DNA from: an uncultured Dehalococcoidia bacterium
Lineage (GTDB): Bacteria > Chloroflexota > Dehalococcoidia > Lucifugimonadales > UBA3495
Assembly: GCA_950072105.1 (NCBI GenBank)
Contig: CATMOE010000010.1
Location: forward strand, 4,438 to 68,437
DNA: 64,000 nt
Reading direction: 5' to 3'
Shown here: positions 16,638-31,366 of the stretch, in pieces
Numbering within the stretch: the stretch's first letter is position 1
Layout: every line of letters begins with the position of its first letter
Notes under the pieces: model-generated
What the model saw: the letters and a program-made list of their open reading frames with translations, nothing else
What the model was told of the DNA's origin: nothing
The model's database searches: none
Position numbers and translations under genes: made by a program

Positions 16638-16660
16638 CCTCCGTTGTGTCTGATGGTCTC

Positions 16661-17305: not shown

Positions 17306-17344
17306 TACAAGTGCCAGATGGGTTACGCGTATGGGGTCCGGTAT

Positions 17345-17836: not shown

Positions 17837-17901
17837 TGTGTCCGTCCGGGACGAGCGATGGAATTATTGACTGATATTCCGCAGATCAATCGCGCGCTTG
17901 G

Positions 17902-18267: not shown

Positions 18268-18389
18268 GCCTGAACAAGCTTACCAAGCGAGGCTAGATAA
18301 GTCTAACACATTGCGCCGCCCAACTCGATATCGTACGACCTAATGAGGCCCTATCAGCGTAAATATTAGTATGGTTTAAGTATCATGTC

Positions 18390-18418
18390 TTGACACCCTT
18401 TTGAGGCTTAACGATAAT
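18390..18418 (+). promoter_or_regulatory. sigma70-type promoter in front of the sulfur gene cluster
   Basis: TTGACA (18390-18395), 17-nt spacer, GATAAT (18413-18418), 48 nt before the ATG at 18466. Confidence 0.45.
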
Positions 18419-18465
18419 TGACGAAACGTTCAGGCTGAGAAAGAAGGCCGCACAGGAGGACAATA

Positions 18466-19050
18466 ATGACCACGGTAAAGTACTCGCTGGACCAGTTCGT
18501 CAGCGACATGGAAGGATTGATCTCCGGTAAGCCGGACCAGCAGAAACTATTCGACACAGGATCATCTTGGTTGGAGAAGCTCATCCAGGACCCCAACGCC
18601 CTTCCGGAGCAATACCGGTCGCCCGTGGGCAAGGGCTCAAGGCCCAACCACGGCTCCTACGCCCTGTATCAGGGGGACAGCGGGCTGTTGGTGACCGCCG
18701 TGGTTTGGGGCCCAGGCGACCACGCGTCTCCCCACGATCACGGCACCTGGGGAATGATCGGCGTAATGGACAATGCCCTCACTGAGACCCGTTTTCGCCG
18801 GGTGGACGACCGCACCAAGGAAGGATTTGCGACGCTGGAGAAAGACCGCACATCCCAGTTCAAACCCGGGGAAATAACTCTCCTGATCCCGGAAGTGGAC
18901 GAGATTCACCAGATGGACAACTTCACCGACCGCCCCACCGTGGAGATTCACGTCTATGGCGACGATCTTAGAGGGCTGAACCGGAGCCGGTACAACTTGG
19001 AGACGGGCAAGATCACCCCCTTCGCCACCGAGAAATACGACAACTGCTAG
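18466..19050 (+). CDS. cysteine dioxygenase type I family cupin (thiol dioxygenase)
   Basis: 194 aa. ..ASPHDHGTWGMIGVMDN..E..F.. metal-binding cupin pattern typical of bacterial CDO / 3-mercaptopropionate dioxygenase homologues. AGGAGG RBS. Confidence 0.7.
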   Translation: MTTVKYSLDQFVSDMEGLISGKPDQQKLFDTGSSWLEKLIQDPNALPEQYRSPVGKGSRPNHGSYALYQGDSGLLVTAVVWGPGDHASPHDHGTWGMIGVMDNALTETRFRRVDDRTKEGFATLEKDRTSQFKPGEITLLIPEVDEIHQMDNFTDRPTVEIHVYGDDLRGLNRSRYNLETGKITPFATEKYDNC

Positions 19051-19252
19051 TGGATTCCTGTTTGAGTAAATAATCGAGGGGGGACGCCGGAAACCGGCCT
19101 TCTGTTCACGTCAGCGCATGGGGACAATGCCGCAATCACAACCGCATGAAAAACGATAGATACACCAACGAGACAAGAATCGGCAACTGGCTGGAGTTGA
19201 CATTTTCAGCCGGCGCCATTGTTTCCCAAGTTTCCCAAATCGCAGACCGCCC

Positions 19253-20596
19253 ATGGTGAAGCTGGACGAAACCCCGGCAGCGGGCCGCTTAAGTTCCCTC
19301 CATCATTACGGCTGGGCGATCGTGGGCATGGCCACCGTCCTCCAACTGACCACCAACTTCATCAGCCAGGCTTTCTCCATCCTCATTGTTATCATGCAAG
19401 ATGAGTTTGGCTGGACTCTGACCTCAATCATCTTTGCCTACTTCTTCCGAAGCATCGTCAGCGCGTTGTTGTCGCCGGTGGCTGGCTGGATGGCGGATCG
19501 ATACGGCTCACGTCGGACCCTGGTTATAGCAGGCATATGCTATACCAGCGGTCTGCTCTTACTTAGCACCATCAGCACCCAGTGGCAACTATACCTCTAC
19601 TACAGCTTGATTCTGGGCGTCGCTCAATCCCTGTTCCGGGTCAACATCCCCACCACCGTCGCCGCCTGGTTCAAGAAACGTCTTGGGGTGGCGGTTGGTA
19701 TCCAGCAGTCGGCAGGGGGGATGGGCAGCTCCATCATGGCCCCAGCGCTGGCCCTGCTTCTGTCAAGAACCGATTGGGAGACCGCATTCTGGATCATCCC
19801 GGCGATCGGGGGAACTATCGTCTTTTCCCTGGTGGCCTTTTTCCACGGCGACCCCGCCGACCGGGGAAAGAGACCCTACGGCGCGACTGACAACGACCCA
19901 CCGCCAGTTGATACTAGCAATCCAGCCATAACCAAGCTACGGAGCAAAGCATTCCTCAAGCAGGCCAAGCAAACTCGGGCATTCTGGAACCTCATTGGCA
20001 TCCATTACCTGGGTTGCATGGGGCATTCCATCGTCATGGTGGGCGTCGTATTCTTCGCTACCCGGCCAGAGCAGGGCGTCTCTCTGCAGGCCGCCGCCTT
20101 CATCATCTCGATCTACACCCTGACCGCCAGCGGGAGCCGGTTCGCCGTCCCAGTGCTGGCAGACATGTTCGGGGCCAAATGGGTCATGGCCGTTGCTTAT
20201 ACTATCCAGGGGATCTCGGTGGCGTTGCTCTTCTGGACCCATGACGCCTGGCAGTTCTACCTGTTCGCCACCGTGTTCGGTGTAGGATTGGGCGGCGAGA
20301 TGTCGGCGTTCTTGGTGATAGACCGCCAGTATTTTGGGATGGGCCCCGTCCGCACGATCTTCGGCTTCCAAAACCTGGGGTCCGGAATCGGGATGGCCGT
20401 TGGCGGACTTCTGGGCGGCGTAATATTCGACATTTACGGCTCTTATGACATAGCTTGGGTCATTTCTATCGCTACTAGCTTGGGAGGCGCTGCCTTCATA
20501 TTGCTCTTGGAGCCCACCTCCCGCGTGCTGATTCCCGATTGGGAAGACGCCTTGCCGCCGGAGGCCCGGACACCGTCCCCGGTAGCATCAGGGTGA
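19253..20596 (+). CDS. MFS transporter (paralogue 1)
   Basis: 447 aa, about 12 hydrophobic helices, ..GWMADRYGSRR.. MFS loop motif. Confidence 0.85.
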   Translation: MVKLDETPAAGRLSSLHHYGWAIVGMATVLQLTTNFISQAFSILIVIMQDEFGWTLTSIIFAYFFRSIVSALLSPVAGWMADRYGSRRTLVIAGICYTSGLLLLSTISTQWQLYLYYSLILGVAQSLFRVNIPTTVAAWFKKRLGVAVGIQQSAGGMGSSIMAPALALLLSRTDWETAFWIIPAIGGTIVFSLVAFFHGDPADRGKRPYGATDNDPPPVDTSNPAITKLRSKAFLKQAKQTRAFWNLIGIHYLGCMGHSIVMVGVVFFATRPEQGVSLQAAAFIISIYTLTASGSRFAVPVLADMFGAKWVMAVAYTIQGISVALLFWTHDAWQFYLFATVFGVGLGGEMSAFLVIDRQYFGMGPVRTIFGFQNLGSGIGMAVGGLLGGVIFDIYGSYDIAWVISIATSLGGAAFILLLEPTSRVLIPDWEDALPPEARTPSPVASG

Positions 20597-20601
20597 CGGC
20601 C

Positions 20602-20638
20602 CTCACCCCGGCCCCTCTCCTAGCGGGAGAGGGGTGAC
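20602..20638. repeat. GC-rich palindromic hairpin (REP/terminator-like)
   Basis: cccctctcc (20612-20620), tagcg loop, ggagagggg (20626-20634), extended by tcac/gtga. Lies between the MFS and rhodanese genes. Confidence 0.45.
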
Positions 20639-20695
20639 TCAGATATATTCAGGCGTAAAATCCGAATAACCACTCTCGACGGAGGTGCATCAACC

Positions 20696-22273
20696 ATGGC
20701 TAAGAAGATCGCGGCAGAGGACCTGAGCTCGTTGCTAGAGGGTAACAGCCAGTTTGCGTTGATCGACGTGCGGGAGGCGGGTGAGTATAACAGCACCCAC
20801 ATCATCGACTCCAGCCTGATTCCTCGCAGGCAATTGGAATCCCAGATGTCCGCCGCAGTGCCGGTAAAGGGTTGCCAGGTAGTTATATGCGACGACGACG
20901 GCCGGCGGGCAGGTCTGGCCGCCGAAACTCTGGAGCGCATGGGCTACAGCGATGTTTCGGTATTGGACGGGGGCATCAACCAGTGGTCCACCCTGGACTT
21001 CCCCACCGAGTGGGGGAGCAACGTAATCAGCAAGGTGTTCGGCGAGAAGATGGAAGTAGTCCACCACGTACCCGAGATCGACGCCACCGAGCTGCACGAG
21101 CGGATAGAGCGCGGGGACAAGCTGGTTATCCTGGACACCCGCACCCCGGAAGAGTACCAACGGTTCTGTATCCCCGGCGGCCGGAGCGTTCCCGGCGGTG
21201 AGTTGGCCCTGCGGGTCACCGACATCACCAAAGACCTGGACAAAGACACCACGGTCATCGTCAACTGCGCCGGACGCACCCGCAGCATCATCGGGACCAG
21301 GGTGCTACAACGGATGGGATTGACCAACATCTTTGGATTGAAAAACGGCACCTCGGGCTGGGTGTTGGCCGGCTACGAGCTAGAAACCGGAGCCGACCGG
21401 CTTGACCTGCCCGAGCCCTCTCCCGAAGGCTTAGCCGCCGCCGAAGCCTACGCCGATACGCTTGCCGCCGAAGACGGCGTCCGCTACATGGATATTCCCA
21501 GACTTCAGGCCATGTTGGCTAATAGAGAGAAAGAACCCGCGTTTTTCGTCGACGTGCGCAGAGCCGAAGAGTACGAAGCCGGCCATATCCCCGGCTTCCG
21601 CTGGTTCCCCGGTGGCCAGGTAGTCCAACGGTCCGACGACGTGCTGGTGGTCAAGAATTGCCCGGTGGTCTTCGCTTGCGACCAGAAGGCCCGTTCCACT
21701 TTCATTGCCTCCTGGTACCGCCAATTTGGCTTTGACGAAGTTTACGCCGTGGAAGGCGGTACCTCAGCGTGGGCCGCCGCGGGGTTGGACCTGGAAAAGG
21801 GTGTGCCCGAAGAGGCCCCGTACGGCCTGGCCCAAGCCAAAGAGCGGGTCAGGCCCCTATCTCCTCAGGACCTCCAAGTTGCCTCACCCCAGGTCACATT
21901 ATTTGTGGATACCAGCCAGGACTTCGCCAGAGGCCACGTTCCCGGAGCCCGATGGGCGCCACGGGGTTGGCTGGAGTTTCACATCGCAGGCCTGGCGCCG
22001 GATAAGAAGGCAAGCATCGCGGTCACCGGTAACGACGGGGCCAACGCCGCCTTGGCCGGAGCCACCCTGATGGACCTGGGATATGAGAATGTCTCGGTCC
22101 TGGAAGGCGGAATGGCCGCGTGGAACAGGGCTGGATTGGCTGTGGAATCCGGATTGTCCGGCGTGATGTCCCCGCCTACCGACATGGTGCCCTCCGGACC
22201 GGACCGGAACTACGCCGACATGATGACCTATCTCCGCTGGGAAACCGCCTTGGGAGAGAAATTCGCCGGTTAG
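20696..22273 (+). CDS. four-domain rhodanese-like sulfurtransferase
   Basis: 525 aa. Three CX4R active-site loops (CDDDGRR, CAGRTRS, CDQKARS). The fourth domain lacks the Cys (VTGNDGANA). Confidence 0.85.
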   Translation: MAKKIAAEDLSSLLEGNSQFALIDVREAGEYNSTHIIDSSLIPRRQLESQMSAAVPVKGCQVVICDDDGRRAGLAAETLERMGYSDVSVLDGGINQWSTLDFPTEWGSNVISKVFGEKMEVVHHVPEIDATELHERIERGDKLVILDTRTPEEYQRFCIPGGRSVPGGELALRVTDITKDLDKDTTVIVNCAGRTRSIIGTRVLQRMGLTNIFGLKNGTSGWVLAGYELETGADRLDLPEPSPEGLAAAEAYADTLAAEDGVRYMDIPRLQAMLANREKEPAFFVDVRRAEEYEAGHIPGFRWFPGGQVVQRSDDVLVVKNCPVVFACDQKARSTFIASWYRQFGFDEVYAVEGGTSAWAAAGLDLEKGVPEEAPYGLAQAKERVRPLSPQDLQVASPQVTLFVDTSQDFARGHVPGARWAPRGWLEFHIAGLAPDKKASIAVTGNDGANAALAGATLMDLGYENVSVLEGGMAAWNRAGLAVESGLSGVMSPPTDMVPSGPDRNYADMMTYLRWETALGEKFAG

Positions 22274-22297
22274 GCTCAGTCAAAGTCTAGCAGGCTG

Positions 22298-22372
22298 GTC
22301 CTTCGACAGGCTCAGGACGAACGGAAAGCGATCCAACCAGCCCCACCGTTCGTGGTGAGCTTGTCGAACCAC
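22298..22372. repeat. palindromic repeat family A, copy 1
   Basis: ccttcgacaggctcaggacgaacgg...ccgttcgtggtgagcttgtcgaaccac. The arms are mutually complementary. Near-identical copies lie at 53454-53524 and 61544-61611. Confidence 0.8.
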
Positions 22373-22433
22373 CTTTTGGGTTCACTTCTCAAGATGTACG
22401 GCCAATCCCAATCAACACCGCAAGGAAAACAAG

Positions 22434-23594
22434 ATGACCTATTTCCCATTGACCAAAGGGCAGGAAGAGTGGCGAGACCGGGCGGCGGATATTGCCGCCA
22501 AGGAGCTGGCTCCCCGGGCAGAAGAAACCGACCGGTTGGGACGCTATCCCCAAGAATCACTCGATGCCTTGAAGCGGGAAGGCCTTTTCGGCCTCCGCGT
22601 CTCCAAAGAGCACGGCGGAGTGGGCGCCGACATGGTCACCACTTCCTTGGTTATCGAGGAACTGGCCAAAAAATGCCCCTCGACATGCATGTGCTACAAG
22701 ATGCACCTAGAGGCGGCGGAGATCATCTGCCAGATTCCCACCGACTACCAGATAGAAAAGTTCGTCAAGCCCATGGCCAAAGGAGAGGTGTTCACCAGCA
22801 TCGCCGGCAGCGAGACCTGGGGCGAGGGTGACAACTGGACCGCTGCCCAGACCGCCTCCGCCGTCACCAAGGTGCCCGGCGGATACCAACTGGACGGCAT
22901 CCGAAAGTCCTACGTCACCTCGGCGGGACACGCCACCCACTTCCAATTTCACTGCCGGGTCGGCGAAGACTCTCCGCAAAGCGCCGCCAGCCGTCTGATC
23001 GTCGCGGCGGACGAGATCGATTGGGAGATCCTGGAGCCGTGGAACGGTTTAGGCATGCGAGGCAATTCCAGCTCTCCGGTCAAGTTCAGCGGTTTCGTCC
23101 CGGAAGAGAATCGCCTTGGCGAGGAGCACACCGTTGCCGCAGCGACAACCCACTTTGCCCGCCCGGTGGTCGCCCTCACTTACGCCGCCGCCTACCTAGG
23201 TATCGCCTCTGGCGCCTACGAGTTGGCGATGGAGGAGATGGTCCGCCGCCACCCCAGCGGTGCCAGGCGGCTGGACAGCGCCATCAACCAGCGGCGCATG
23301 GCCGAGATGGGAACCCAGATCGAAGCGGCGCGAGCCCTGCTTTTGTCGGCTTCGTCGTCCTTCGACCAAGACCGGGCGTCCTCCCATCTACTTTACATGC
23401 AGGCCAAGGTCGCCTGCTCCGAAGCAGGAGTAAGGGTGACCCAGGACTTGATGACGTCGTTCGGAGGCGCGGCTTTTGCCGGACGGATGCCCTTCGAGCG
23501 GTATTTCCGGGACGCCCGGGCCGGCATGGTCATGGGCATGGCCAACGACCTGGCCTACCAAAACATGATTCCCCTCATGTTTCCGGAGAATTAA
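22434..23594 (+). CDS. acyl-CoA dehydrogenase-fold flavoprotein (non-canonical; no Glu in the YEGT position)
   Basis: 386 aa. ACAD N-, middle- and C-domain pattern. The C-terminal region ..FERYFRDARAGMVMGMANDL.. aligns to ..RDAKIYQIYEGTSQI.. of classical ACADs, with Gly in place of the catalytic Glu. Confidence 0.8.
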   Translation: MTYFPLTKGQEEWRDRAADIAAKELAPRAEETDRLGRYPQESLDALKREGLFGLRVSKEHGGVGADMVTTSLVIEELAKKCPSTCMCYKMHLEAAEIICQIPTDYQIEKFVKPMAKGEVFTSIAGSETWGEGDNWTAAQTASAVTKVPGGYQLDGIRKSYVTSAGHATHFQFHCRVGEDSPQSAASRLIVAADEIDWEILEPWNGLGMRGNSSSPVKFSGFVPEENRLGEEHTVAAATTHFARPVVALTYAAAYLGIASGAYELAMEEMVRRHPSGARRLDSAINQRRMAEMGTQIEAARALLLSASSSFDQDRASSHLLYMQAKVACSEAGVRVTQDLMTSFGGAAFAGRMPFERYFRDARAGMVMGMANDLAYQNMIPLMFPEN

Positions 23595-23670
23595 GCCCGG
23601 CCTTCACGTATAAGAAAACCGTAGTACAATGAGGCAAGAATAGTCGTGACAATCCATCCTAGGAAGCACC

Positions 23671-24021
23671 ATGCCACTTATTGAGCACAGCGAGATACCG
23701 ATGCCAGCGGCGGTGGACAACCGCCGGGAGCGGGAGATTGTCTCCCACAAACAAGGCGCGGTTTCGCTTACCATCAAAGAGATCGAGCTATACCCCGGCT
23801 GGGAAGGACGCCTGCACACGCACCCGACGGACATCGCCATCATGGTAATGGCCGGTGCCGTGCAACTTGTTCTCGGAGACGAAGTCTCCACCATTCGAGC
23901 GGGCACGACCGTGCTGGCCCCGCCCGGCGTGCCTCACAAGCTGGTTAACCAACTATGGATCCCGGTTCGGTTGCTGGTGACCTATCCAGCCGCCGACCTG
24001 GACACTAACTATCTCGAGTAA
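23671..24021 (+). CDS. cupin domain-containing protein
   Basis: 116 aa. ..GRLHTHPTD..(x)..GVPHKL.. cupin_2 His pattern. Confidence 0.7.
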   Translation: MPLIEHSEIPMPAAVDNRREREIVSHKQGAVSLTIKEIELYPGWEGRLHTHPTDIAIMVMAGAVQLVLGDEVSTIRAGTTVLAPPGVPHKLVNQLWIPVRLLVTYPAADLDTNYLE

Positions 24022-24043
24022 AACTAAGCCCAGGAGTCTAAAC

Positions 24044-25150
24044 ATGGCCACCCAAATCACCCAGACCGCGTTAAAGCCTCAAATCATTCCCACCAACGCC
24101 GGATTGCGCACCTTCGCCGCGCCCCCAACGGCGTTACAAGAAGATATCGTGCCCAATGATTTGTTCTACATCCGCAATCATTGGAAGGACTGCCCGGAGA
24201 TCGACCAGGCCACCTACCGGCTGGCGGTTGACGGCCAAGTAAGCACCCCCTTAAGTTTGAGCTATGAAGACTTGAAACAACTGCCTCAGAAAAGGTTCCA
24301 AGTCACCTTCGAGTGCTGCGGAAACAGCCCCGTGCCCGACTACTGGTCCAAGGCCCTGCGCATCAGCACGGTGATGGAAGGTATCAAGGGACACGGAATC
24401 ATGGGCAACGCCGAGTGGGCTGGGGTTTCTTTACGGGACGTGCTGGAGAAAGCCGGGGTGAAGGATTCCGCGGTAGAGGTCATGTTCGAGGGCGCCGACC
24501 ACGGTCCAGACGAAACCGTGGGGGATCCGCCGGAAGTTACCTACGAGCGCAGCCTGCCCATCGCCAAAGCGATGCACCCCGATACCCTCCTGGCTTACGA
24601 GATGAACGGTGAGCCGTTGCCCCTGAACCACGGCTTCCCTCTGCGTCTGCTGGTTTCGGGCTGGTACGGCATGAACTCGGTCAAGTGGCTGGTGGGCATC
24701 CACGTGCTGGACCACGAGTTCAAAGGCTTCTACATGACCGATAGGTACATCACCACCAATGAACCGGGTTCGGCGGCGCCATATACCTTCTACACCAAGA
24801 TGAAGGTCAAGTCCATCATCACCAACCCCGCCCCTGGTGAGATTGTCCCCGCAACTGGATACACCCTAGCCGGGGCGGCATGGTCCGGTGAAGACCAGAT
24901 CACCAAAGTCGAGATCAGCACCGATGCCGGCGCAACTTGGAACCTGGTAGACACAGTCCGGCCTCGCAGCGACTATTCATGGAACCGGTGGGAGCACCAG
25001 TGGACCCCACCAGGTCCCGGTAAATATACCCTGATGTGCCGGGCCACTAACGACCAAGGCGACACCCAGCCCATGGAATTCCCCAACAAGTGGGACGGCC
25101 GGGGTTACGGCAACAACATGGTGTTCCCCCACGAGGTTGAGGTTCGCTAG
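24044..25150 (+). CDS. sulfite oxidase-fold molybdopterin oxidoreductase
   Basis: 368 aa. ..FYIRNH.., ..FECCGNS.. (Mo-ligand Cys region), ..GFPLRLLVSGWYGMNSVKWL.., plus a C-terminal dimerisation domain. No twin-arginine signal and no haem motif. Confidence 0.85.
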   Translation: MATQITQTALKPQIIPTNAGLRTFAAPPTALQEDIVPNDLFYIRNHWKDCPEIDQATYRLAVDGQVSTPLSLSYEDLKQLPQKRFQVTFECCGNSPVPDYWSKALRISTVMEGIKGHGIMGNAEWAGVSLRDVLEKAGVKDSAVEVMFEGADHGPDETVGDPPEVTYERSLPIAKAMHPDTLLAYEMNGEPLPLNHGFPLRLLVSGWYGMNSVKWLVGIHVLDHEFKGFYMTDRYITTNEPGSAAPYTFYTKMKVKSIITNPAPGEIVPATGYTLAGAAWSGEDQITKVEISTDAGATWNLVDTVRPRSDYSWNRWEHQWTPPGPGKYTLMCRATNDQGDTQPMEFPNKWDGRGYGNNMVFPHEVEVR

Positions 25151-25151
25151 C

Positions 25152-25430
25152 ATGAAGGCTGTTCCCCTTCCCGTTTCGTTTATTCTGGTGCTTTGCCTGA
25201 CCATCGCCCTGATGATTTTCTTCGGGGCATGGGCGGTTTCGGCCGACGTAGGCGAACGGGATAGGGTATTTGCCTTCGCCGTACCCGGCGGTACAGCTGC
25301 CCTGACCTCACATGCCAACGCCACCGGACCACTGGCACTGGGAGAAAGTAGCGCCATTGAAGACGGTCGCACCGCCGCCTCGGAGACATGGTGGGGCAGC
25401 GGCCTGCTCAGAGCGTGCCCGCTGCACTAG
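25152..25430 (+). CDS. small signal-peptide/membrane-anchored hypothetical protein
   Basis: The ATG lies 1 nt after the upstream stop. MKAVPLPVSFILVLCLTIALMIFFGAWAVSA then a soluble tail. No CxxCH. Confidence 0.35.
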   Translation: MKAVPLPVSFILVLCLTIALMIFFGAWAVSADVGERDRVFAFAVPGGTAALTSHANATGPLALGESSAIEDGRTAASETWWGSGLLRACPLH

Positions 25431-25515
25431 GCGCCGAGGCCAACTCCTCCCGATGCTCACTCTCCATGAAGAGATATTTCATTAGACCATCCCCGTGGCT
25501 GAGTATTATTGATTC

Positions 25516-26904
25516 ATGCTTAACCTAAGCGCTTCCAGGCTACCCTGGGGGCTGCATTACTGTTGGATAATCGTGGCCGTCTTGGCCACGGTGCAGATTC
25601 TCGCTACCTCCATCAGCATGGCCGCCGGTATTCTTTTGCCGCCCTTGACCGACCCAGATGGCCGCTTCGGCTGGAGTGTCGGTACTATCGTCATGGGGCT
25701 GGCGGCCTATTACATGGTCGGAGCTATTTTCGCCCCAGTCAGCGGTTGGCTAGGCGACCGGTACGGCGCCCGGCGCATGATGTTCGCCGGCGCCATTCTG
25801 TACGGCGTCAGCATGGTGTTGCTGGGATTTGTCCGCGAGTTATGGCAGTTCTTCATCGTCTTCGGTTTTTTGCTATCACTGACCCAATCCATCGCCATGG
25901 TGCCTTTGATGGCGTCGGTCAGCGGCTGGTTTCGGCGGCGGTTGGGATTGGGAACCGGGATCCTGTGGGCCGCGGGCGGCTTAGGCACGGCCATCGTAGC
26001 ACCGCTTACCGGCTACTTATTGGAGAATTACGGTTGGCAGATGACGTTCTGGAGCATCGGCGTCATCGGCTGCGGGATCTTGATTCTCCTAAACCTCCTG
26101 CTCCGCAATAAGCCGGAGGATATCGGCGTCAAGCCCTATGGGGCAGCCGACGACGACCCACCTCCTACTGTCCGTAGCGCCACAGCGGAAAAACTGCGTC
26201 TAAAAGTGTTCAACCAGCATGTCCGGCGGACCAGAGCATTCTGGAACCTTCCGGCCATTCACGGACTGGGGTGCGCCGGACATGGCATAGTCCTGATCTT
26301 CTCAATTCCATTCGCCGTTGAGCAGGGTGTCGGCCTGACCCAGGCGGCGGTGATCCTTACGATAATTTCTCTGGTCAGCATCTCCAGCAGACTTCTGACC
26401 CCGGTTCTGGCGGAACGGTACGGCTCCAAACGTATCATGGCCAGTTGCCTGTTCGTTCAGGGCATTACCGTGCTTATCCTTTTTGGGGCCCATGACCTGT
26501 GGACTTTTTATCTGTTCGCCGCCCTGTTCGGCATAGGATTCGGCGGCGAGTGGACCGGATATCTGGTGATAAACCGGCAATACTTCGGCAACGGACCCAT
26601 GGGGACCCTCTACGGATCACAGATGACCGGAGCGCTGATGGGACACGCGATAACCACGGCCCTTGGCGGCGTGGTGTTCGAGATATTCAGATCTTCCGGC
26701 ATCTTAGACCCCTACGATGTCATATTCGCCTTGTCCGTCGCCTTCAGCCTGGCGGGAGCGGCAGTTATCTTGACTTTGGAACCCACCTCCAAAACGCTCA
26801 TTCCCGATTGGGAGATGTCGTTACCCGAAGAGGCCCGCTCCGGAGGCGCTGGGATTCCCGGTGCTCGAACCACGCCGCTCGAGCCCGCCGCCGGGGACGG
26901 ATAA
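25516..26904 (+). CDS. MFS transporter (paralogue 2)
   Basis: 462 aa. Collinear with 19253-20596, including ..GWLGDRYGARR.. and the C-terminal ..LEPTSKTLIPDWE..LPEEAR.. (compare ..LEPTSRVLIPDWE..LPPEAR..). Confidence 0.85.
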   Translation: MLNLSASRLPWGLHYCWIIVAVLATVQILATSISMAAGILLPPLTDPDGRFGWSVGTIVMGLAAYYMVGAIFAPVSGWLGDRYGARRMMFAGAILYGVSMVLLGFVRELWQFFIVFGFLLSLTQSIAMVPLMASVSGWFRRRLGLGTGILWAAGGLGTAIVAPLTGYLLENYGWQMTFWSIGVIGCGILILLNLLLRNKPEDIGVKPYGAADDDPPPTVRSATAEKLRLKVFNQHVRRTRAFWNLPAIHGLGCAGHGIVLIFSIPFAVEQGVGLTQAAVILTIISLVSISSRLLTPVLAERYGSKRIMASCLFVQGITVLILFGAHDLWTFYLFAALFGIGFGGEWTGYLVINRQYFGNGPMGTLYGSQMTGALMGHAITTALGGVVFEIFRSSGILDPYDVIFALSVAFSLAGAAVILTLEPTSKTLIPDWEMSLPEEARSGGAGIPGARTTPLEPAAGDG

Positions 26905-26935
26905 AGCCGGCAAAGCTGTAGAGAGGAACGCAAGC

Positions 26936-27610
26936 ATGCCCAAACTTATCGACCTCACCCTAACCCTGGGAAGCCCGCGGGTTTCCGCCGTTCCGGGCCT
27001 GATCGGCGTGACCATGTCGCCGTTGCAGACCCACGAGTCCCACACGCGTTCCAACACCAAACTGACCCTGGCCACCCACATCGGCACCCACGTCGACGCT
27101 CCCTACCACTTTCATCCCGATGGGACCACTGTTGACGATATGCCTTTGGAGCGCTACATGGGACCGGCGCTCCTCTTGGACCTGCGCCAGTCGGCCCAGA
27201 GCAAGACGCCGATCTCCGTAGCGGACTTAGAGCAGGCCGGGGCCGCGCCCGGCACGATAAAGGACAACATCGTAGTTCTGTTCACGGGCTGGGCGCACAA
27301 CGAGTCGGGAAAAGAGGGATTCTACTCCGACGGGCCTTACCTCAGCACGGAGGGGGCGGGTTACCTGGCAAGGCATGAAGTCAACGCCGTAGCTGTCGAC
27401 TTTCCCATCGACAAACATCCGCCGACTCCGCAATCCACAATGAGCGATTTCCCGGTGCACCGGCTTCTGTTGGGCCTGGGCATACCGCTCATCGAAAACC
27501 TGATTAACCTGGACCAACTGGTAGGCTTCAATTTCGAGCTTTGGGCGTTGCCTTTGAAGCTGAAAGGCGGTGACGGGGCCGCCGCTCGCGCCGTCGCCCG
27601 CATTCTCTAA
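26936..27610 (+). CDS. cyclase family protein (kynurenine formamidase-like fold)
   Basis: Start moved to the ATG at 26936 (GAGAGGA RBS). ..HIGTHVDAPYHF.. signature. Confidence 0.8.
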   Translation: MPKLIDLTLTLGSPRVSAVPGLIGVTMSPLQTHESHTRSNTKLTLATHIGTHVDAPYHFHPDGTTVDDMPLERYMGPALLLDLRQSAQSKTPISVADLEQAGAAPGTIKDNIVVLFTGWAHNESGKEGFYSDGPYLSTEGAGYLARHEVNAVAVDFPIDKHPPTPQSTMSDFPVHRLLLGLGIPLIENLINLDQLVGFNFELWALPLKLKGGDGAAARAVARIL

Positions 27611-27631
27611 ACTCAATCCGGAAGTACTCCC

Positions 27632-28285
27632 ATGACCGGCAAATCCACCGGCAAGAGCGCCACCTCCATACTCCTGGCCACCGGAAATCCGGCCAAGCAG
27701 CAGAAACTCGCCTGGCTGGTTGAAGCCCTTAACTTGTCTCCCACGACTCCCCAACAGTTAGGCCTATCCGGAGTCCCCGAAGAGAAAGGCGGCACCCACC
27801 ACGAGATTGCCCGGGCCAAAGCGCGAGAGTGGTCGCTGGCGGGGTCAACATTGGCCATCGCCTCCGACGGCGGCTTGGTCCTTCCGGCGCTGGGCGATAG
27901 CTGGGAAAGCCTCTACACCCACCGATTCGCCGGACCGGCGGCCGACGACCAAGAGAGAACGCGCCGGTTATTGGAGTTGATGGAACCCTACCAAGGCGGC
28001 GAACGCGAGGCTTCTTGGGTGGAAGGCTTATGCGTTGCCGACCGGGGCCGGGTATTGGCCTCCTGGGAACTTCGGGGAGGCACTGGGGTTATCGCCGAAA
28101 CGCCGGACGACGGCCCCGCGATTCCCGGATTCTGGGCCTTTTCAGTCTGGTATTTCCCTCAATTTGGCCGGACTTACAATCAACTCACCCCGGTCGAGCT
28201 TGAGTCTCTTGATGACCATTGGACCAGCCTGCGCCGGTTGGTAAGACGGTACTTCCAATCTCACTTCGTGTCCACCGGACATTGA
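27632..28285 (+). CDS. divergent Ham1/ITPase-like (non-canonical NTP pyrophosphatase family) protein
   Basis: 217 aa. ..ILLATGNPAKQQKL.., ..IASDGGLVLPAL.. resemble Ham1 motifs, but the rest is divergent. Confidence 0.45.
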   Translation: MTGKSTGKSATSILLATGNPAKQQKLAWLVEALNLSPTTPQQLGLSGVPEEKGGTHHEIARAKAREWSLAGSTLAIASDGGLVLPALGDSWESLYTHRFAGPAADDQERTRRLLELMEPYQGGEREASWVEGLCVADRGRVLASWELRGGTGVIAETPDDGPAIPGFWAFSVWYFPQFGRTYNQLTPVELESLDDHWTSLRRLVRRYFQSHFVSTGH

Positions 28286-28364
28286 TTACCCACCTGTGGT
28301 ACCCAAGCTCCCGGATACGCTACAATGGTTTCACCCGTTACCACCCTGACTACATTATTGGAGT

Positions 28365-29321
28365 TTGCCATTGACTTCCGCCATTAAGATGCCCGCCTCC
28401 ATCGACGAGGTCCAGAAGATTCTCCGCGAGCAGCATTACATCAGCGACCGCAGCTTGGCGGTGCCCATATTCTTGAGCTTAAAGCTGCAACGGCCCCTGT
28501 TCCTAGAGGGTGAGGCCGGTGTCGGCAAAACGGAGATTGCCCGGGCCCTGGCTGCCGCGCTGGATACTGAGTTGATCCACCTTCAGTGCTACGAAGGCCT
28601 GGACATCAACCACGCCGTCTACGAATGGAATCACGCCCGCCAGATCCTGGAAATACGCCTGATGGAATCGTCCGGCCAGGTCGACCGGGAGAGCGCCACC
28701 GCCGACCTGTTCAGCGAGCGGTTCTTGATCAAACGCCCCCTTCTGCAGGCCATCGACGAAAGCCGGGAGAAGTCTCCAGTCCTGCTCATCGACGAGTTGG
28801 ACCGGGCCGATGAGGAGTTCGAGGGATTCCTGCTGGAGATGCTGGGTAACTTCCAGATCACGATTCCAGAATTGGGTACTTACAAGGCAGTCCATCCACC
28901 CATCGTTATAATCACCTCCAACCGGACTCGGGAAGTCCACGACGCGCTGAAGCGCCGCTGCCTGTACTACTGGATAGAATATCCAGACTTCCAGAAAGAG
29001 CTCCAAATCATCACCGACAAGATCCCCGAAGCTCCCCGCCAGTTGGCGCAACAGGTGACTGGATTCATTCAGGAATTGCGGGAGACCGAACTTTATAAGA
29101 TTCCGGGGGTGTCGGAAACCCTGGACTGGACGTCGGCCCTCCTGGCTTTAAATCAGTCCGAGTTGGACCCCCAGGTTATCGACGACACCATGGGTATCGT
29201 GCTCAAGTACCAGGACGACATCGAAATGGTGCGAGGCGAGCCGGTGCGGGCCATGTTGGAGCGGTCCAAAAACCGAGGCCCCCGACGGGGAAGACGGGGT
29301 GGCGGCGGTGGCGGTCCGTGA
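28365..29321 (+). CDS. MoxR-family AAA+ ATPase (CoxD-like)
   Basis: 318 aa. Walker A GEAGVGKTE, Walker B LLIDELDRA, Gly/Arg-rich tail. The exact start (TTG 28365/28371 or ATG 28389) is uncertain. Confidence 0.85.
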   Translation: MPLTSAIKMPASIDEVQKILREQHYISDRSLAVPIFLSLKLQRPLFLEGEAGVGKTEIARALAAALDTELIHLQCYEGLDINHAVYEWNHARQILEIRLMESSGQVDRESATADLFSERFLIKRPLLQAIDESREKSPVLLIDELDRADEEFEGFLLEMLGNFQITIPELGTYKAVHPPIVIITSNRTREVHDALKRRCLYYWIEYPDFQKELQIITDKIPEAPRQLAQQVTGFIQELRETELYKIPGVSETLDWTSALLALNQSELDPQVIDDTMGIVLKYQDDIEMVRGEPVRAMLERSKNRGPRRGRRGGGGGGP

Positions 29322-30631
29322 CCTCGCCTGCCAACGGCGCCCATCAGGACGACGGCCACATCCTACACAACCTGATGATGTTCGGCGAGACGTTGCGCAA
29401 GATTGGGTTGGACGTGGGTTCAGGCAACATGCTGGACCTGGTTCGTGCGTTGGAGTACACCCCCATCAGCCTTAAACAGGAATTCCAGCAAGCGGCGCGC
29501 TCAATACTGGTCCACCGGAAACAGGACATTGCCCTGTTCGACGAAGCCTTCCAGGTGTTCTGGCGGCGTCCGGCCAGCGGCCAAACCACCCTCGACCTGC
29601 GGTCAATGGGAGAGCAACGCCGTTACCGGAACCCTCAAGTCGCTCCACCTAAGGGCGGCGACGAGGGTAACAGCACAGCCACCGAGGGAGATGACGATGA
29701 TGCCGGCGACCGGGTGGACCTGACCAGGACCTACAGCGCCAGGGAAGTGCTGCGGCAGAAAGACTTTTCAGACTTCAATGGCTTGGAGATCTCCGAAGCC
29801 AAACGAATGATGTCGGACCTGTCTTGGGACCTAGGAAACCGGCGAACCCGCCGGACCGCGCCGGGAAATGGCTCTTGGATAGACCTGCGCCGCACCCTAA
29901 GGCAGAACCTCAAGTACGGCGGCGAACTCTTGGAGTTGCCGCGACGGGAGCGCAAAGACAAGCCCCGGCACCTGATCTTGATATGCGACGTCAGCGGCTC
30001 CATGGAACGGTACACCCGGATGCTGCTACACTTCATCCACTCTGTAGCAAAGGGCCAGCGGCAGGTGGAGGCATTTTTATTCGCCACCCAGTTAACCCGG
30101 ATCACCCGGTATCTGAACTACCGCAGCATCGATCAGGCGGTCACTGAAGTGTCCCGGGCCGTCCCTGACTGGGCCGGGGGCACTCGCATCGGGCAAGCGC
30201 TCAAGACGTTCAATTTCCAGTGGTTGCGGCGAGTCCGGGGCAGTGGGGCCGTGGTGCTGGTGATTTCCGACGGATGGGACCGGGGCGAGCCGGAGTTGCT
30301 ATCTCAAGAGATTTCACGGCTGCAACGCAGTTGCCACCGGCTGATCTGGCTCAACCCACTGCTGGGGTCCGCCGATTACCAACCGTTGACCCGGGGAATC
30401 CAAGCCGCTCGACCCTACATAGACGACTTTTTACCGGTCAACAACCTAAATAGCCTGGATGCCCTTGCTCAACACTTGAGCAACCTGAATCCTCAACGCA
30501 GTCTCGGACCCCGTTACCGTCCTCCACTGCCCGACGAGCCGGCCCCCGAGGCATCGACAACCGAACGCCAGGAGATCAATCCGGCCCTCGGGCCCACATT
30601 CCGGCATCCGCTGTGGGGCCGCAATCCATAA
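29318..30631 (+). CDS. VWA domain-containing protein (CoxE-like)
   Basis: 437 aa. MIDAS-type ..LICDVSGSM.. and ..VISDGWD.. Shows a 4-nt GTGA overlap with the MoxR gene. Confidence 0.8.
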   Translation: MTSPANGAHQDDGHILHNLMMFGETLRKIGLDVGSGNMLDLVRALEYTPISLKQEFQQAARSILVHRKQDIALFDEAFQVFWRRPASGQTTLDLRSMGEQRRYRNPQVAPPKGGDEGNSTATEGDDDDAGDRVDLTRTYSAREVLRQKDFSDFNGLEISEAKRMMSDLSWDLGNRRTRRTAPGNGSWIDLRRTLRQNLKYGGELLELPRRERKDKPRHLILICDVSGSMERYTRMLLHFIHSVAKGQRQVEAFLFATQLTRITRYLNYRSIDQAVTEVSRAVPDWAGGTRIGQALKTFNFQWLRRVRGSGAVVLVISDGWDRGEPELLSQEISRLQRSCHRLIWLNPLLGSADYQPLTRGIQAARPYIDDFLPVNNLNSLDALAQHLSNLNPQRSLGPRYRPPLPDEPAPEASTTERQEINPALGPTFRHPLWGRNP

Positions 30632-30664: not shown

Positions 30665-31366
30665 ATGCCCTCCTGTCCTTACTGCGCTCATCAGGTCGAA
30701 TCGAATCACATTTTCTGCGGCGGTTGCGGCAAGGCCCTCCCCGCGGAATCCACCGCAGACCCCGAAGAGGCGCTGACCGGGCAGCCACCGCGCACTTTGG
30801 CCTACCGGATCTCGCCAACCCGTATCCTGGTGATGACGTTCCTGTCCGACGGGCTCTATCTGTTCTATTGGTTCTACATCACGTGGCAACAATATCGAGA
30901 CCACACCGGAAACCAAGTGTTCCCCATGTGGCACACTTTGAGCCTAATGATTCCAATCTACGGGCTATTCCGTACTCACGCCCACATGCGCTCTTTCAAG
31001 GAACTGATGCAAGACGCCGGCGTTTTTTGCTCCATCGCAGTAGGATGGGCAGTAGTTCTCGTTTTGATCTCCACCGCGTTGGATAATGCATCACTCAGGG
31101 TAAATGGGGGCTTTTTCAATTTCGGTGAAGTCTCGTTTGGGGCTGCCTTGATCAGCGCCTTGCTGGACCTGGCATCCATCGCTGTTGTTTTGGGGCTTCT
31201 TTTACACGTTCAGCAGAACTTGAACCGGTACTGGGCCAGCCTGGACAACGTGACTCTGGTTGACCTGAACGTTGGTGCGGGAGAGGTTATCCTAGCCGTC
31301 GTCGGGGTCCTAACCTGGATAATTAGCTTGATTAGCATCATCAGCCCGGCATTTCGGACGCTTTAA
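30665..31366 (+). CDS. zinc-ribbon membrane protein (DUF4234-like)
   Basis: 233 aa. N-terminal CPYC..(x)..CGGCG zinc ribbon followed by about 4 hydrophobic helices (..LYLFYWFYITW..). Confidence 0.55.
   Translation: MPSCPYCAHQVESNHIFCGGCGKALPAESTADPEEALTGQPPRTLAYRISPTRILVMTFLSDGLYLFYWFYITWQQYRDHTGNQVFPMWHTLSLMIPIYGLFRTHAHMRSFKELMQDAGVFCSIAVGWAVVLVLISTALDNASLRVNGGFFNFGEVSFGAALISALLDLASIAVVLGLLLHVQQNLNRYWASLDNVTLVDLNVGAGEVILAVVGVLTWIISLISIISPAFRTL

What the first reader, a model, noticed from the sequence alone, without database searches (positions are those of the whole stretch)
18390..27610. Candidate organosulfur (mercapto-acid / sulfinate type) catabolic island ending in cytoplasmic sulfite oxidation
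**Seen in sequence.**
- A near-consensus promoter (18390-18418) is followed by nine co-oriented genes.
- In order they are: a cysteine-dioxygenase-family cupin, an MFS transporter, a 4-domain rhodanese, an ACAD-fold protein, a cupin, a sulfite-oxidase-fold Mo enzyme, a small exported protein, a second paralogous MFS transporter and a cyclase-family hydrolase.

**Established knowledge (as I recall).**
- In Advenella mimigardefordensis DPN7, 3-mercaptopropionate is oxidised by a CDO-homologous dioxygenase to 3-sulfinopropionate.
- That product is activated to the CoA ester.
- The ester is desulfinated by an ACAD-fold desulfinase, releasing sulfite.

**Inference.**
- This cluster contains the dioxygenase-like and ACAD-fold parts plus a sulfite-detoxifying enzyme, transporters and sulfane-sulfur carriers.
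- It may therefore encode uptake and desulfurisation of a thiol or sulfinate organosulfur compound.
- A CoA-ligase or CoA-transferase is missing in the window. The pathway may differ from the known one.
Basis: partly seen in the sequence, partly recalled or inferred. Interest (0 to 1): 0.6.

Follow-up and report, generated by a model that had tools for sequence, protein, structure and literature searches.

The report
SAR202 thiol-to-sulfate oxidation gene cluster

Summary
A TTGACA-17-GATAAT promoter at 18390-18418 precedes nine co-oriented genes with the stated folds.

- **Synteny.** 80 species-level loci (SAR202/Dehalococcoidia MAGs) carry the dioxygenase. Among the 76 loci with an ORF-level call, the order dioxygenase, four-domain rhodanese, sulfite-oxidase-family enzyme recurs in 64-69. 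Both promoter hexamers are kept in 40 loci while the flanks diverge.
- **Dioxygenase.** It is neither Arg-type CDO nor Gln-type 3-mercaptopropionate dioxygenase. It sits in a separate, well-supported clade: 3-His iron site, Glu-His-Tyr instead of Ser-His-Tyr, Ser/Thr at the Gln/Arg position, and the carboxylate-binding Arg168 invariant.
- **Rhodanese.** It is the full-length counterpart of the sulfurtransferase next to CDO-family genes in Ralstonia. In one Variovorax record it is fused to a CDO-like domain.
- **Mo enzyme.** SorA-like, with no signal peptide and no cytochrome partner.
- **Accessory genes.** The ACAD-fold gene is present in only 2 of the 80 other species and fails the desulfinase tests. 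The two MFS transporters and the cyclase are also accessory.

Best reading (0.5): mercapto-carboxylate to sulfinate to sulfite to sulfate. Main rival (0.2): persulfide or thiosulfate oxidation. The substrate is unknown. This is a new variant of the known thiol dioxygenase-rhodanese unit.

The parts
18390..18418 (+). Sigma-70-type promoter, TTGACA-17-GATAAT
   Evidence: Read directly. The only 11/12 match in the region. Hexamers conserved in 40 related loci with diverged flanks.
18466..19050 (+). Thiol dioxygenase of the CDO/MDO family (194 aa), Glu-His-Tyr clade
   Evidence: PF05995. Solved MDO structures match at E about 4e-19. 3-His site, His157, Tyr159 and Arg168 kept; Ser155 is Glu and Gln62 is Ser/Thr. 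Sits in a separate well-supported clade.
19253..20596 (+). MFS transporter 1, oxalate/formate-antiporter or monocarboxylate-transporter type; accessory
   Evidence: PF07690. Best NCBIfam model is the SfMCT L-lactate transporter, 159 bits, below its cut-off. At this position in 6 of 80 loci.
20696..22273 (+). Four-domain rhodanese sulfurtransferase (525 aa)
   Evidence: Four rhodanese stretches. Loops are CDDDGRR, CAGRTRS and CDQKARS; domain 4 has no Cys. Present next to the dioxygenase in 69 of 76 loci. Full-length 36-38% homologues in Proteobacteria, with the domain-2 loop invariant.
22297..22373 (.). REP-like imperfect hairpin, 28-nt arms, between the rhodanese and ACAD genes
   Evidence: The arm motif occurs at least 101 times in the genome at up to 3 mismatches.
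22434..23594 (+). ACAD-fold flavoprotein lacking the catalytic Glu; accessory, function unknown
   Evidence: Pfam and NCBIfam, all below family cut-offs. M-G-M replaces Y-E-G across the family. In the cluster in only L030, L035 and L089 besides the window.
23671..24021 (+). Small metal-binding cupin (116 aa), always directly upstream of the Mo enzyme
   Evidence: PF07883. H49, H51, D54 and H89 are invariant. AlphaFold2 pLDDT 89. Only generic fold matches: RemF, DddK, TM1459. Present in 39 loci.
24044..25150 (+). SorA-like sulfite-oxidase-family molybdoenzyme (368 aa), cytoplasmic
   Evidence: PF00174 plus PF03404. SorA structure 2blf matches at E 4e-56. Cys ligand and the Arg55, His57 and Tyr236 equivalents kept; Arg109 is Pro; no twin-arginine signal. 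No CxxCH motif nearby.
25152..25430 (+). Small protein (92 aa) with one N-terminal hydrophobic segment and a conserved C-terminal TWWG..ACPLH motif
   Evidence: No Pfam match. Conserved after the Mo enzyme in 31 loci.
25516..26904 (+). MFS transporter 2, paralogue of MFS 1 (43-44% identity)
   Evidence: An MFS of this family is in the cluster in 32 loci.
26936..27610 (+). Cyclase-family metal hydrolase, kynurenine formamidase or isatin hydrolase type; accessory
   Evidence: PF04199. Solved structure 4cz1 matches at E 3e-17. The HxGTHxDxPxH motif is invariant, and the start at 26936 comes from the family alignment. Present in 25 loci.
27632..28285 (+). Ham1/RdgB-like NTP pyrophosphatase; conserved neighbour, probably not part of the pathway
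   Evidence: PF01725. RdgB/YggV structures match at E 5e-13. Stays next to the dioxygenase gene even where the rhodanese and Mo genes are missing, in L030, L031 and L035.
28365..29321 (+). MoxR-type AAA+ ATPase; membership of the pathway unresolved
   Evidence: PF07728 and PF00004. Syntenic in 40 loci.
29318..30631 (+). VWA_CoxE protein, overlapping the MoxR gene by 4 nt; membership unresolved
   Evidence: PF05762 at 213 bits. Syntenic in 27 loci.
30665..31366 (+). Zinc-ribbon membrane protein, last co-oriented gene
   Evidence: No Pfam match. Sequence starts CPYC..CGGCG. Found in only one other locus.

Best explanation
A promoter-driven operon conserved across SAR202 oxidises the sulfur of a small mercapto-carboxylic acid to sulfate inside the cell.

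**Step 1 (inferred from residues).** The iron thiol dioxygenase binds the substrate through its thiolate and a carboxylate held by the invariant Arg168 equivalent. It adds O2 to give a sulfinate.

**Step 2 (inferred, enzyme unknown).** Sulfite leaves the sulfinate. This could happen spontaneously, as with sulfinosuccinate or 3-sulfinopyruvate. It could also need help from the small metal cupin or, in some genomes, an ACAD-fold protein.

**Step 3 (inferred from fold and residues).** The signal-less SorA-like molybdoenzyme oxidises sulfite to sulfate. Its electron acceptor is unknown.

**The rhodanese.** The four-domain rhodanese is the obligatory partner of the dioxygenase; the shown part is adjacency in 69 of 76 loci, the same pairing in Proteobacteria, and a natural fusion. 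It probably handles sulfane sulfur or sulfite, for example persulfide plus sulfite giving thiosulfate, or the reverse.

**Accessory genes in this genome.** Two monocarboxylate-type MFS transporters may carry substrate or product. A cyclase-family amidohydrolase may free the thiol acid from a conjugate.
For: - **Conserved order.** Dioxygenase, rhodanese, Mo enzyme recur across 80 species loci at 66-96% dioxygenase identity, with three different upstream flanks.
- **Conserved promoter**.
- **Dioxygenase residues.** 3-His, His157, Tyr159 and Arg168 are invariant. Arg168 binds the iron-coordinated carboxylate in Av3MDO (PMC8050391) and its equivalent does so in MSDO (bioRxiv 10.64898/2026.05.19.726356).
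- **Mo enzyme residues.** The Cys ligand and the SorA Arg55, His57 and Tyr236 equivalents are kept.
- **Moco supply.** MoaC is present in the genome.
- **Same pairing elsewhere.** Ralstonia has a CDO-family gene beside a 545-aa homologue of this rhodanese plus metC. Variovorax has a 750-aa CDO-like::4x-rhodanese fusion. P. protegens lists a rhodanese next to CDO/3MDO (PMC13541209). The Advenella and Variovorax Msdo genes cluster with a rhodanese (PMC5373536).
- **An organic acid substrate.** The monocarboxylate-type MFS genes, the amidohydrolase and the ACAD-fold accessory genes point that way.
Against: - No enzyme of this clade has been assayed.
- The substrate pocket differs from every characterised enzyme: Ser155 is Glu and Gln62/Arg60 is Ser/Thr.
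- No dedicated C-S cleaving enzyme is identified in the core.
- A plain thiol dioxygenation needs no sulfurtransferase, so the strict pairing hints at chemistry not covered here.
- The Mo enzyme lacks the SorA Arg109 equivalent (invariant Pro) and has no known electron acceptor.
- The second Mo paralogue in relatives also lacks the Arg55 equivalent, so not all of these enzymes need be sulfite oxidisers.
Confidence: 0.5

Rival explanations
1. **Sulfane-sulfur oxidation.** The four-domain rhodanese picks up sulfane sulfur from thiosulfate, polysulfide or organic persulfides. The CDO-like enzyme then acts as a cupin-type persulfide dioxygenase, on a small persulfide-carboxylate or on the rhodanese-bound persulfide, and releases sulfite. 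The Mo enzyme makes sulfate. This would work like the ETHE1/CstB persulfide dioxygenase-rhodanese systems, but with an unrelated fold.
For: - The dioxygenase-rhodanese pairing is strict, and a natural fusion exists. This mirrors the PDO-rhodanese fusions described in PMC9163753 and bioRxiv 10.64898/2026.02.20.707092.
- SAR202 versions carry extra loop cysteines in domains 1, 3 and usually 4, which suits a sulfur relay.
- The conserved core contains no C-S lyase or desulfinase.
Against: - Every characterised member of the family (CDO, MDO, MSDO) oxidises thiols, not persulfides.
- Arg168 and the monocarboxylate-type transporters, amidohydrolase and ACAD-fold accessory genes fit an organic acid better.
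- No sulfide:quinone oxidoreductase gene is in the cluster.
Confidence: 0.2
2. **The first reader's route.** 3-Mercaptopropionate is oxidised to 3-sulfinopropionate, activated to the CoA ester by an enzyme encoded elsewhere, and desulfinated by the ACAD-fold protein as in Advenella mimigardefordensis.
For: - The ACAD-fold protein lacks the catalytic Glu and has Gly there, as does the desulfinase, whose motif is A-G-G (PMC8360864).
- The desulfinase model is among its NCBIfam hits, at E 1e-37.
- The dioxygenase is nearest to MDOs among solved structures.
Against: - The ACAD gene is absent from the cluster in 78 of 80 species loci. Elsewhere it sits with unrelated neighbours or between transposases.
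- It scores 129 bits against a 600-bit cut-off, and the Rv1679/FadE16 and acryloyl-CoA reductase models score higher.
- There is no Arg in residues 56-156, where Arg84 of the desulfinase would align. The role of Arg84 is from my recollection of Schurmann et al. 2015.
- No CoA ligase or transferase is in the window.
Confidence: 0.1
3. **Different Mo chemistry.** The Mo enzymes are not sulfite oxidisers. They act on organic S(IV)/S-oxide compounds, for example sulfinate to sulfonate, and the MFS transporters export the product. The cluster would then detoxify or convert thiols rather than mineralise them.
For: - The SorA Arg109 equivalent is an invariant Pro in the window-type enzyme.
- The paralogue in relatives also lacks the Arg55 equivalent.
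- Both are cytoplasmic and have no cytochrome partner.
- A luciferase-like monooxygenase lies next to one cluster architecture.
Against: - The window enzyme keeps the Arg55, His57, Tyr236 and Cys equivalents of SorA. SorA is its best match in both the solved structures and NCBIfam.
- No sulfite-oxidase-family enzyme with sulfinate oxidase activity is known to me.
Confidence: 0.1

Closest known systems
Thiol dioxygenase-sulfurtransferase two-gene unit of Proteobacteria (3mdo or CDO-family gene with a roughly 530-aa four-domain rhodanese: Ralstonia solanacearum CJO94_18780/18785; P. protegens HH203_RS07000/RS06995)
   Same: - A CDO-family cupin sits next to a full-length, collinear homologue of the window rhodanese (36-38% identity over 95-98% of its length).
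- The C(A/G)GRTRS loop in domain 2 and the C-terminal YLxWE motif are invariant.
- In one Variovorax record the two are fused.
   Different: - The dioxygenase here belongs to another clade, Glu-His-Tyr with Ser/Thr at position 62.
- The SAR202 rhodanese has extra loop cysteines in domains 1, 3 and usually 4.
- The unit is extended by a cupin, one or two cytoplasmic sulfite-oxidase-family enzymes and a small membrane protein.
- There is no LysR or TetR regulator and no metC.
Mercaptosuccinate degradation in Variovorax paradoxus B4 and Advenella mimigardefordensis (Msdo)
   Same: - A CDO-homologous dioxygenase makes an unstable sulfinate that releases sulfite.
- The gene clusters with a rhodanese.
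- In V. paradoxus a molybdopterin oxidoreductase is proposed to oxidise the sulfite (PMC5373536).
   Different: - Msdo has His-His-Tyr and Arg66 (bioRxiv 10.64898/2026.05.19.726356). The window enzyme has Glu-His-Tyr and Ser.
- Among solved structures, Msdo matches the window enzyme only at E 1e-8, against about 4e-19 for MDOs.
3-Mercaptopropionate dioxygenase (Pa3MDO 3uss/4tlf, Av3MDO 6xb9)
   Same: - Best solved relatives, at about 30% identity.
- The 3-His site, His157, Tyr159 and the carboxylate-binding Arg168 are conserved.
   Different: - Gln62 is Ser/Thr and Ser155 is Glu.
- The window enzyme sits in a separate, well-supported clade.
SorA sulfite dehydrogenase of Starkeya novella (2blf)
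   Same: - Same two-domain fold.
- The Cys ligand and the Arg55, His57 and Tyr236 equivalents are kept.
   Different: - No twin-arginine signal and no SorB-type cytochrome c.
- The Arg109 equivalent is Pro, with a 7-residue insertion after it.
- It scores 260 bits against the 600-bit SorA model cut-off.
3-Sulfinopropionyl-CoA desulfinase AcdDPN7 (5af7/5ahs)
   Same: - ACAD fold.
- The catalytic Glu is replaced, with Gly at that position.
   Different: - Far below the family cut-off.
- No Arg where Arg84 would align.
- No CoA-activating partner.
- The gene is accessory to the cluster.

Membership tests
Thiol dioxygenase superfamily (CDO_I, PF05995) | Cupin with a 3-His iron site | tested here: met
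   The His89, His91 and His142 equivalents are conserved in 120-121 of 121 family sequences. Pfam score is 26 bits against a cut-off of 23.
Thiol dioxygenase superfamily (CDO_I, PF05995) | Outer-sphere Ser-His-Tyr triad | tested here: not met
   His and Tyr are invariant, but Ser is an invariant Glu. MSDO likewise departs, with His at this position.
Arg-type cysteine dioxygenase | Arg60 binding the substrate carboxylate, and the Cys93 partner of the Cys-Tyr crosslink | tested here: not met
   Position 62 (Pseudomonas numbering) is Ser/Thr. The position after the second His that corresponds to the crosslink Cys is Thr. Solved CDOs match only at E 0.008 or worse.
Gln-type 3-mercaptopropionate dioxygenase | Gln62 | tested here: not met
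   Ser in 108 and Thr in 13 of 121 sequences. A separate well-supported clade from the Pa, Av and Re MDOs.
Gln-type 3-mercaptopropionate dioxygenase | Arg168 that holds the iron-bound carboxylate | tested here: met
   Arg in 120 of 121 sequences.
Mercaptosuccinate dioxygenase | His-His-Tyr triad plus Arg66 | tested here: not met
   The window enzyme has Glu-His-Tyr and Ser. The Ralstonia and Variovorax His-His-Tyr proteins form another clade.
Dioxygenase-partnered four-domain sulfurtransferase | Full-length collinear homology, the domain-2 loop C(A/G)GRTRS, and adjacency to a CDO-family gene | tested here: met
   Adjacent in 69 of 76 SAR202 loci.
3-Sulfinopropionyl-CoA desulfinase (NF042439) | Score above the curated cut-off | tested here: not met
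   129 bits against 600.
3-Sulfinopropionyl-CoA desulfinase (NF042439) | Arg84 at the sulfinate site (recalled from Schurmann et al. 2015) | tested here: not met
   5af7 aligns collinearly, query 4-369 to chain 2-367. The window protein has no Arg between residues 56 and 156. A residue-by-residue alignment to 5af7 was not obtained.
3-Sulfinopropionyl-CoA desulfinase (NF042439) | Absence of the catalytic Glu of the Y-E-G motif | tested here: met
   M-G-M, conserved in 115 family sequences. The desulfinase has A-G-G (PMC8360864).
SorA/SorT sulfite dehydrogenases | Mo-ligand Cys and the active-site Arg55, His57 and Tyr236 | tested here: met
   Alignment to 2blf and family consensus.
SorA/SorT sulfite dehydrogenases | Second active-site Arg (SorA Arg109, chicken Arg190) | tested here: not met
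   Invariant Pro in the motif ECCGNSPVP.
SorA/SorT sulfite dehydrogenases | Twin-arginine export signal and a cytochrome c partner | tested here: not met
   No RR motif in the N-terminus, and the ORF cannot extend further upstream. No CxxCH motif in any ORF of 60 aa or more in 18000-31500.
ETHE1/CstB persulfide dioxygenases | Metallo-beta-lactamase fold with a 2-His-1-Asp iron site | tested here: not met
   The dioxygenase is a cupin. Whether it works like a persulfide dioxygenase cannot be tested with these tools.
DddK-type DMSP lyase (for the 116-aa cupin) | Catalytic Tyr two residues after the metal-binding Glu (recalled from the DddK structure papers) | tested here: not met
   Fold match at TM 0.84 but only 18% identity. 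The motif is HTHPTDIAI, with no Tyr.

The most novel reading that the evidence does not exclude
The CDO-like enzyme and its four-domain rhodanese could form a cupin-type persulfide or thiosulfate-oxidising machine. Sulfane sulfur would be relayed along the rhodanese cysteines and dioxygenated to sulfite, which the signal-less SorA-like enzyme turns into sulfate. That would give SAR202 a cytoplasmic, O2-dependent sulfur-oxidation route independent of Sox, Dsr, Apr and ETHE1. It would also explain the so far unexplained dioxygenase-rhodanese pairing across bacteria.
Probability: 0.12. Interest if true: 0.8.

Novelty: new variant of a known kind. Interest (0 to 1): 0.5.

Why it matters
- **Ecology.** SAR202 is one of the most abundant bacterial lineages of the dark ocean and is thought to feed on organosulfur compounds. 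The SAR202 papers I could read mention rhodanese, apr and 'a sulfite oxidase', but not this cluster (PMC5864207, PMC9416657, PMC5395668). A strongly promoted, widely conserved operon from thiol to sulfate would name a concrete route by which dissolved organic thiols are mineralised there.
- **Testable enzymes.** It offers three tractable proteins: an uncharacterised thiol dioxygenase clade, a cytoplasmic SorA-like enzyme with no known acceptor, and a four-domain rhodanese.
- **An open question.** Why bacterial thiol dioxygenases are so regularly paired, and sometimes fused, with this sulfurtransferase is unexplained.

Tried and rejected
- **RNA elements.** An Rfam scan of 16500-32500 at E <= 0.1 found no riboswitch or leader.
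- **Terminators.** The terminator-like count equals chance, so no internal terminator could be assigned.
- **Small cupin.** The structure model was good (pLDDT 89), but the fold search gave only generic mini-cupins. The DddK resemblance was rejected for lack of the catalytic Tyr.
- **Sequencing runs.** The tool for public runs was closed, so there is no evidence on transcription or operon continuity.
- **Literature.** Brandt et al. 2014 (PMC4215256) is not held. Statements about V. paradoxus B4 therefore come second-hand from PMC5373536.
- **Desulfinase alignment.** I could not get a residue-level alignment to 5af7, because only the top five alignments are printed. The Arg84 test rests on collinearity and on the absence of any Arg in a 100-residue span.
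- **Own-genome paralogues.** Neighbourhoods of the dioxygenase (C45, C1), Mo enzyme (C29) and cupin (C40) paralogues were listed but gave no obvious sulfur context and were not pursued.
- **Shadow ORFs.** Many 'conserved' minus-strand ORF clusters in the synteny analysis were Arg/Pro-rich shadow frames of real genes and were discarded.
- **HAM-MoxR-VWA.** I considered these part of the pathway. They are left unresolved because the RdgB-like gene stays beside the dioxygenase gene even where the sulfur genes are deleted, which fits a conserved neighbour better.

Full report
**What is there**

The window lies in a 4.08-Mb, 164-contig MAG. Related contigs carry record titles naming SAR202 cluster, Dehalococcoidia or Chloroflexota MAGs.

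- A TTGACA-17-GATAAT promoter, read directly. It is the only 11/12 match between 17000 and 32500.
- Nine + strand genes separated by 1-202 nt.
- Pfam confirms each fold: CDO_I cupin, MFS_1, four rhodanese stretches, the three ACAD domains, Cupin_2, Oxidored_molyb plus Mo-co_dimer, a 92-aa protein with no family, a second MFS_1, and Cyclase.

- The cyclase gene probably starts at 26936, not 26861.
- Rhodanese domain 4 has lost its loop Cys in this genome.
- Four more co-oriented genes follow up to 31366: RdgB-like, MoxR, VWA_CoxE and a zinc-ribbon membrane protein.

None of the window ORFs scanned is a CoA ligase or transferase.

**Synteny**

A scan of one genome per species returned 258 species with a relative of the dioxygenase. 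The best 80 loci (66-96% identity) were fetched with 10-kb flanks. I used tblastn with the window proteins and an independent ORF clustering.

Of the 76 loci with an ORF-level dioxygenase call:

| Gene | Loci |
|---|---|
| Four-domain rhodanese | 69 |
| Sulfite-oxidase-family gene | 64 |
| RdgB-like | 48 |
| MoxR | 40 |
| Small cupin | 39 |
| MFS | 32 |
| Small membrane protein | 31 |
| VWA | 27 |
| Cyclase | 25 |

Many loci are cut by contig ends or by the 10-kb flank, so these are lower bounds.

Three architectures recur, each with a different upstream flank.
- **A:** dioxygenase, rhodanese, cupin, Mo enzyme, (cyclase), RdgB-like, MoxR, VWA.
- **B:** as A, with a second Mo paralogue before the cupin, and the small protein plus an MFS after the Mo enzyme.
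- **C:** dioxygenase, rhodanese, Mo paralogue, Uma2 gene(s), a very divergent ACAD-fold protein, small protein, MFS, RdgB-like, MoxR.

The window is type B, with the ACAD-fold gene where relatives have the second Mo paralogue.

Selfish elements have landed between the genes in various species without breaking order or orientation. They include restriction-modification genes, Uma2, transposases and HEPN-like genes.

**Promoter**

The hexamers TTGAC(A/G)-17-(C/G)ATAAT are present upstream of the dioxygenase gene in 40 loci. Spacer and flanks are almost unconserved. Architecture C has its own conserved TTGCCA-18-TA(A/C)ACT. This is the pattern expected of a functional promoter. No conserved operator and no Rfam element was found.

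**The dioxygenase**

The best solved relatives are the 3-mercaptopropionate dioxygenases of Pseudomonas, Azotobacter and Ralstonia (E about 4e-19). Mercaptosuccinate dioxygenase follows at 1e-8 and cysteine dioxygenases at 0.008 or worse.

Across 121 family sequences:
- the three iron histidines, His157, Tyr159 and Arg168 are essentially invariant;
- the Gln/Arg position is Ser (108) or Thr (13).

Arg168 holds the iron-bound carboxylate in Av3MDO (PMC8050391). Its equivalent Arg175 does so in MSDO (bioRxiv 10.64898/2026.05.19.726356). A substrate with a thiol and a nearby carboxylate is therefore the most economical inference.

In a library clustered at 50% identity, only 15 representatives match at E <= 1e-30, out of 1240 at E <= 1e-3. 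In a tree of 93 representatives the window protein sits in a well-supported clade (100/99, then 99/96) that mostly carries Glu at the triad position. That clade is apart from the clade holding the three characterised MDOs and from the His-His-Tyr pair of Ralstonia and Variovorax.

**The rhodanese**

Full-length homologues (36-38% identity, 95-98% coverage) occur in 104 proteobacterial replicons of the plasmid collection.
- In Ralstonia solanacearum the homologue lies beside a CDO-family gene and metC.
- In Variovorax paradoxus VAI-C a 750-aa protein carries an N-terminal CDO-like cupin in front of the four rhodanese domains.
- In Shinella it sits among flavin oxidoreductases and a TauE sulfite exporter.

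Only the domain-2 loop C(A/G)GRTRS is invariant across phyla. SAR202 proteins add cysteines in domains 1, 3 and usually 4.

Published clusters agree. P. protegens lists a rhodanese next to CDO/3MDO and LysR (PMC13541209). The Advenella and Variovorax Msdo genes cluster with a rhodanese (PMC5373536).

**The Mo enzyme**

- SorA of Starkeya is the best structure (E 4e-56) and the best NCBIfam model (260 bits against a cut-off of 600).
- The Mo-ligand Cys and the equivalents of SorA Arg55, His57 and Tyr236 are kept.
- The Arg109 equivalent is an invariant Pro in the motif ECCGNSPVP.
- The N-terminus has no twin-arginine motif and the ORF cannot extend upstream.
- No CxxCH motif exists in any ORF of the region.
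- The genome has MoaC.

'Cytoplasmic sulfite oxidation' is thus plausible but not proven, and the electron acceptor is unknown. The second paralogue in relatives also lacks the Arg55 equivalent and may act on something else.

**The ACAD-fold protein**

- It lacks the catalytic Glu (M-G-M for Y-E-G) throughout its family, and it has no alternative Glu of the isovaleryl-CoA dehydrogenase type.
- All NCBIfam hits are far below their cut-offs. Rv1679/FadE16 scores highest at 203 bits; the desulfinase model scores 129 against 600.
- No Arg lies in residues 56-156, where the desulfinase Arg84 would align.
- It is inside the cluster in only two other species loci and one metagenome contig.
- Elsewhere it follows an MFS gene, stands alone, or is paired with the divergent ACAD-fold protein between transposases.
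- A REP-like hairpin, whose arm motif occurs at least 101 times in the genome, sits just upstream of it.

It is an accessory, mobile addition. Its role here is unknown.

**The remaining genes**

- **Cupin.** It has a complete H-x-H..D..H metal site but only generic structural neighbours.
- **Cyclase-family protein.** It resembles kynurenine formamidase and isatin hydrolase.
- **MFS genes.** They score best against the SfMCT lactate transporter and oxalate/formate antiporter models.
- **RdgB-like gene.** It resembles housekeeping RdgB. It stays next to the dioxygenase gene even in loci that have lost the rhodanese and Mo genes (L030, L031, L035).

I therefore treat it and the MoxR-VWA pair as conserved neighbours whose link to the pathway is open.

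**Reading**

| Reading | Confidence |
|---|---|
| Best: a mercapto-carboxylate is dioxygenated to a sulfinate, sulfite is released, and the cytoplasmic SorA-like enzyme makes sulfate; the rhodanese is an obligatory partner handling sulfane sulfur or sulfite | 0.5 |
| Rival: a persulfide or thiosulfate oxidation system, in which the cupin enzyme plays the part ETHE1-type enzymes play elsewhere | 0.2 |
| The Mo enzymes act on organic S(IV) compounds | 0.1 |

**Novelty**

The SAR202 literature available to me does not describe this cluster. Landry et al. mention only 'a sulfite oxidase'. I class it as a new variant of the known thiol dioxygenase-sulfurtransferase unit, with moderate interest. It is abundant and conserved in a major ocean lineage, its components are testable, but no function has been shown.

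Noticed in passing
window 22297-22373: Imperfect 28-nt-arm hairpin between the rhodanese and ACAD genes. Its arm motif TTCGACAGGCTCAGGACGAACGG occurs at least 101 times in the 4.08-Mb genome at up to 3 mismatches, so it is a REP-like dispersed element.
   Followed up: partly
L047:15043-16197, L035:11926-13086, L087:9470-10624: A very divergent ACAD-fold protein of about 386 aa (Pfam hits weak, at or below cut-off) replaces cupin plus Mo enzyme in 24 related clusters. It is paired with the window-type ACAD gene in L035 and, between transposases, in L087. The two may form a two-subunit flavoenzyme.
   Followed up: partly
L080:12348-13541, L047:13105-14355: A second sulfite-oxidase-family paralogue (about 35% identical to the window enzyme) has an acidic, signal-less N-terminus. 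It lacks the SorA Arg55 equivalent (VQH for RNH), so it is probably not a sulfite oxidiser.
   Followed up: partly
L091:4332-6584 (Variovorax paradoxus VAI-C, CP063167.1): A 750-aa protein annotated 'sulfurtransferase' is a natural fusion of an N-terminal CDO-like cupin (PHDHTTW...HFYG) to the four rhodanese domains.
   Followed up: partly
L004:14077-15980, L081:15833-19954, L019:16301-17530, L049:10626-11756, L018:14907-16200: In relatives the spacers of this cluster have taken up restriction-modification genes, a 1373-aa type IIG-like enzyme, transposases, Uma2 genes and tandem HEPN-like genes. Gene order is not disturbed. The cluster looks like an insertion hot spot.
   Followed up: partly
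window 15915-16637 (- strand): A PIG-L/LmbE-family deacetylase, the family of the bacillithiol and mycothiol enzymes BshB and MshB, lies upstream beyond two small conserved genes of unknown function (17345-17836 and 17902-18267). It is syntenic in 21 loci. A link to low-molecular-weight thiol metabolism is possible but untested.
   Followed up: no
window 47240-49948 and 55368-56969: A sulfite/nitrite reductase haemoprotein gene (NIR_SIR), followed by a HemD-type gene, and a gamma-glutamyltranspeptidase lie 20-30 kb downstream. Both are further sulfur- or thiol-related functions in the same window.
   Followed up: no
window 26861-26936: The longest ORF of the cyclase gene overlaps the end of MFS 2 by 44 nt. 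The first 25 codons are absent or unconserved in 25 relatives, so the real start is probably the ATG at 26936.
   Followed up: yes
genome contig C17:44539-47247: A second Ham1-like gene lies about 2 kb upstream of the genome's MoaC gene.
   Followed up: no
genome contigs C98, C37, C12, C1 and C10:74121-76754: The oxalate/formate-antiporter or monocarboxylate-type MFS family of the two cluster transporters has at least seven further paralogues in this genome. One on C98 is 67% identical to MFS 1.
   Followed up: no
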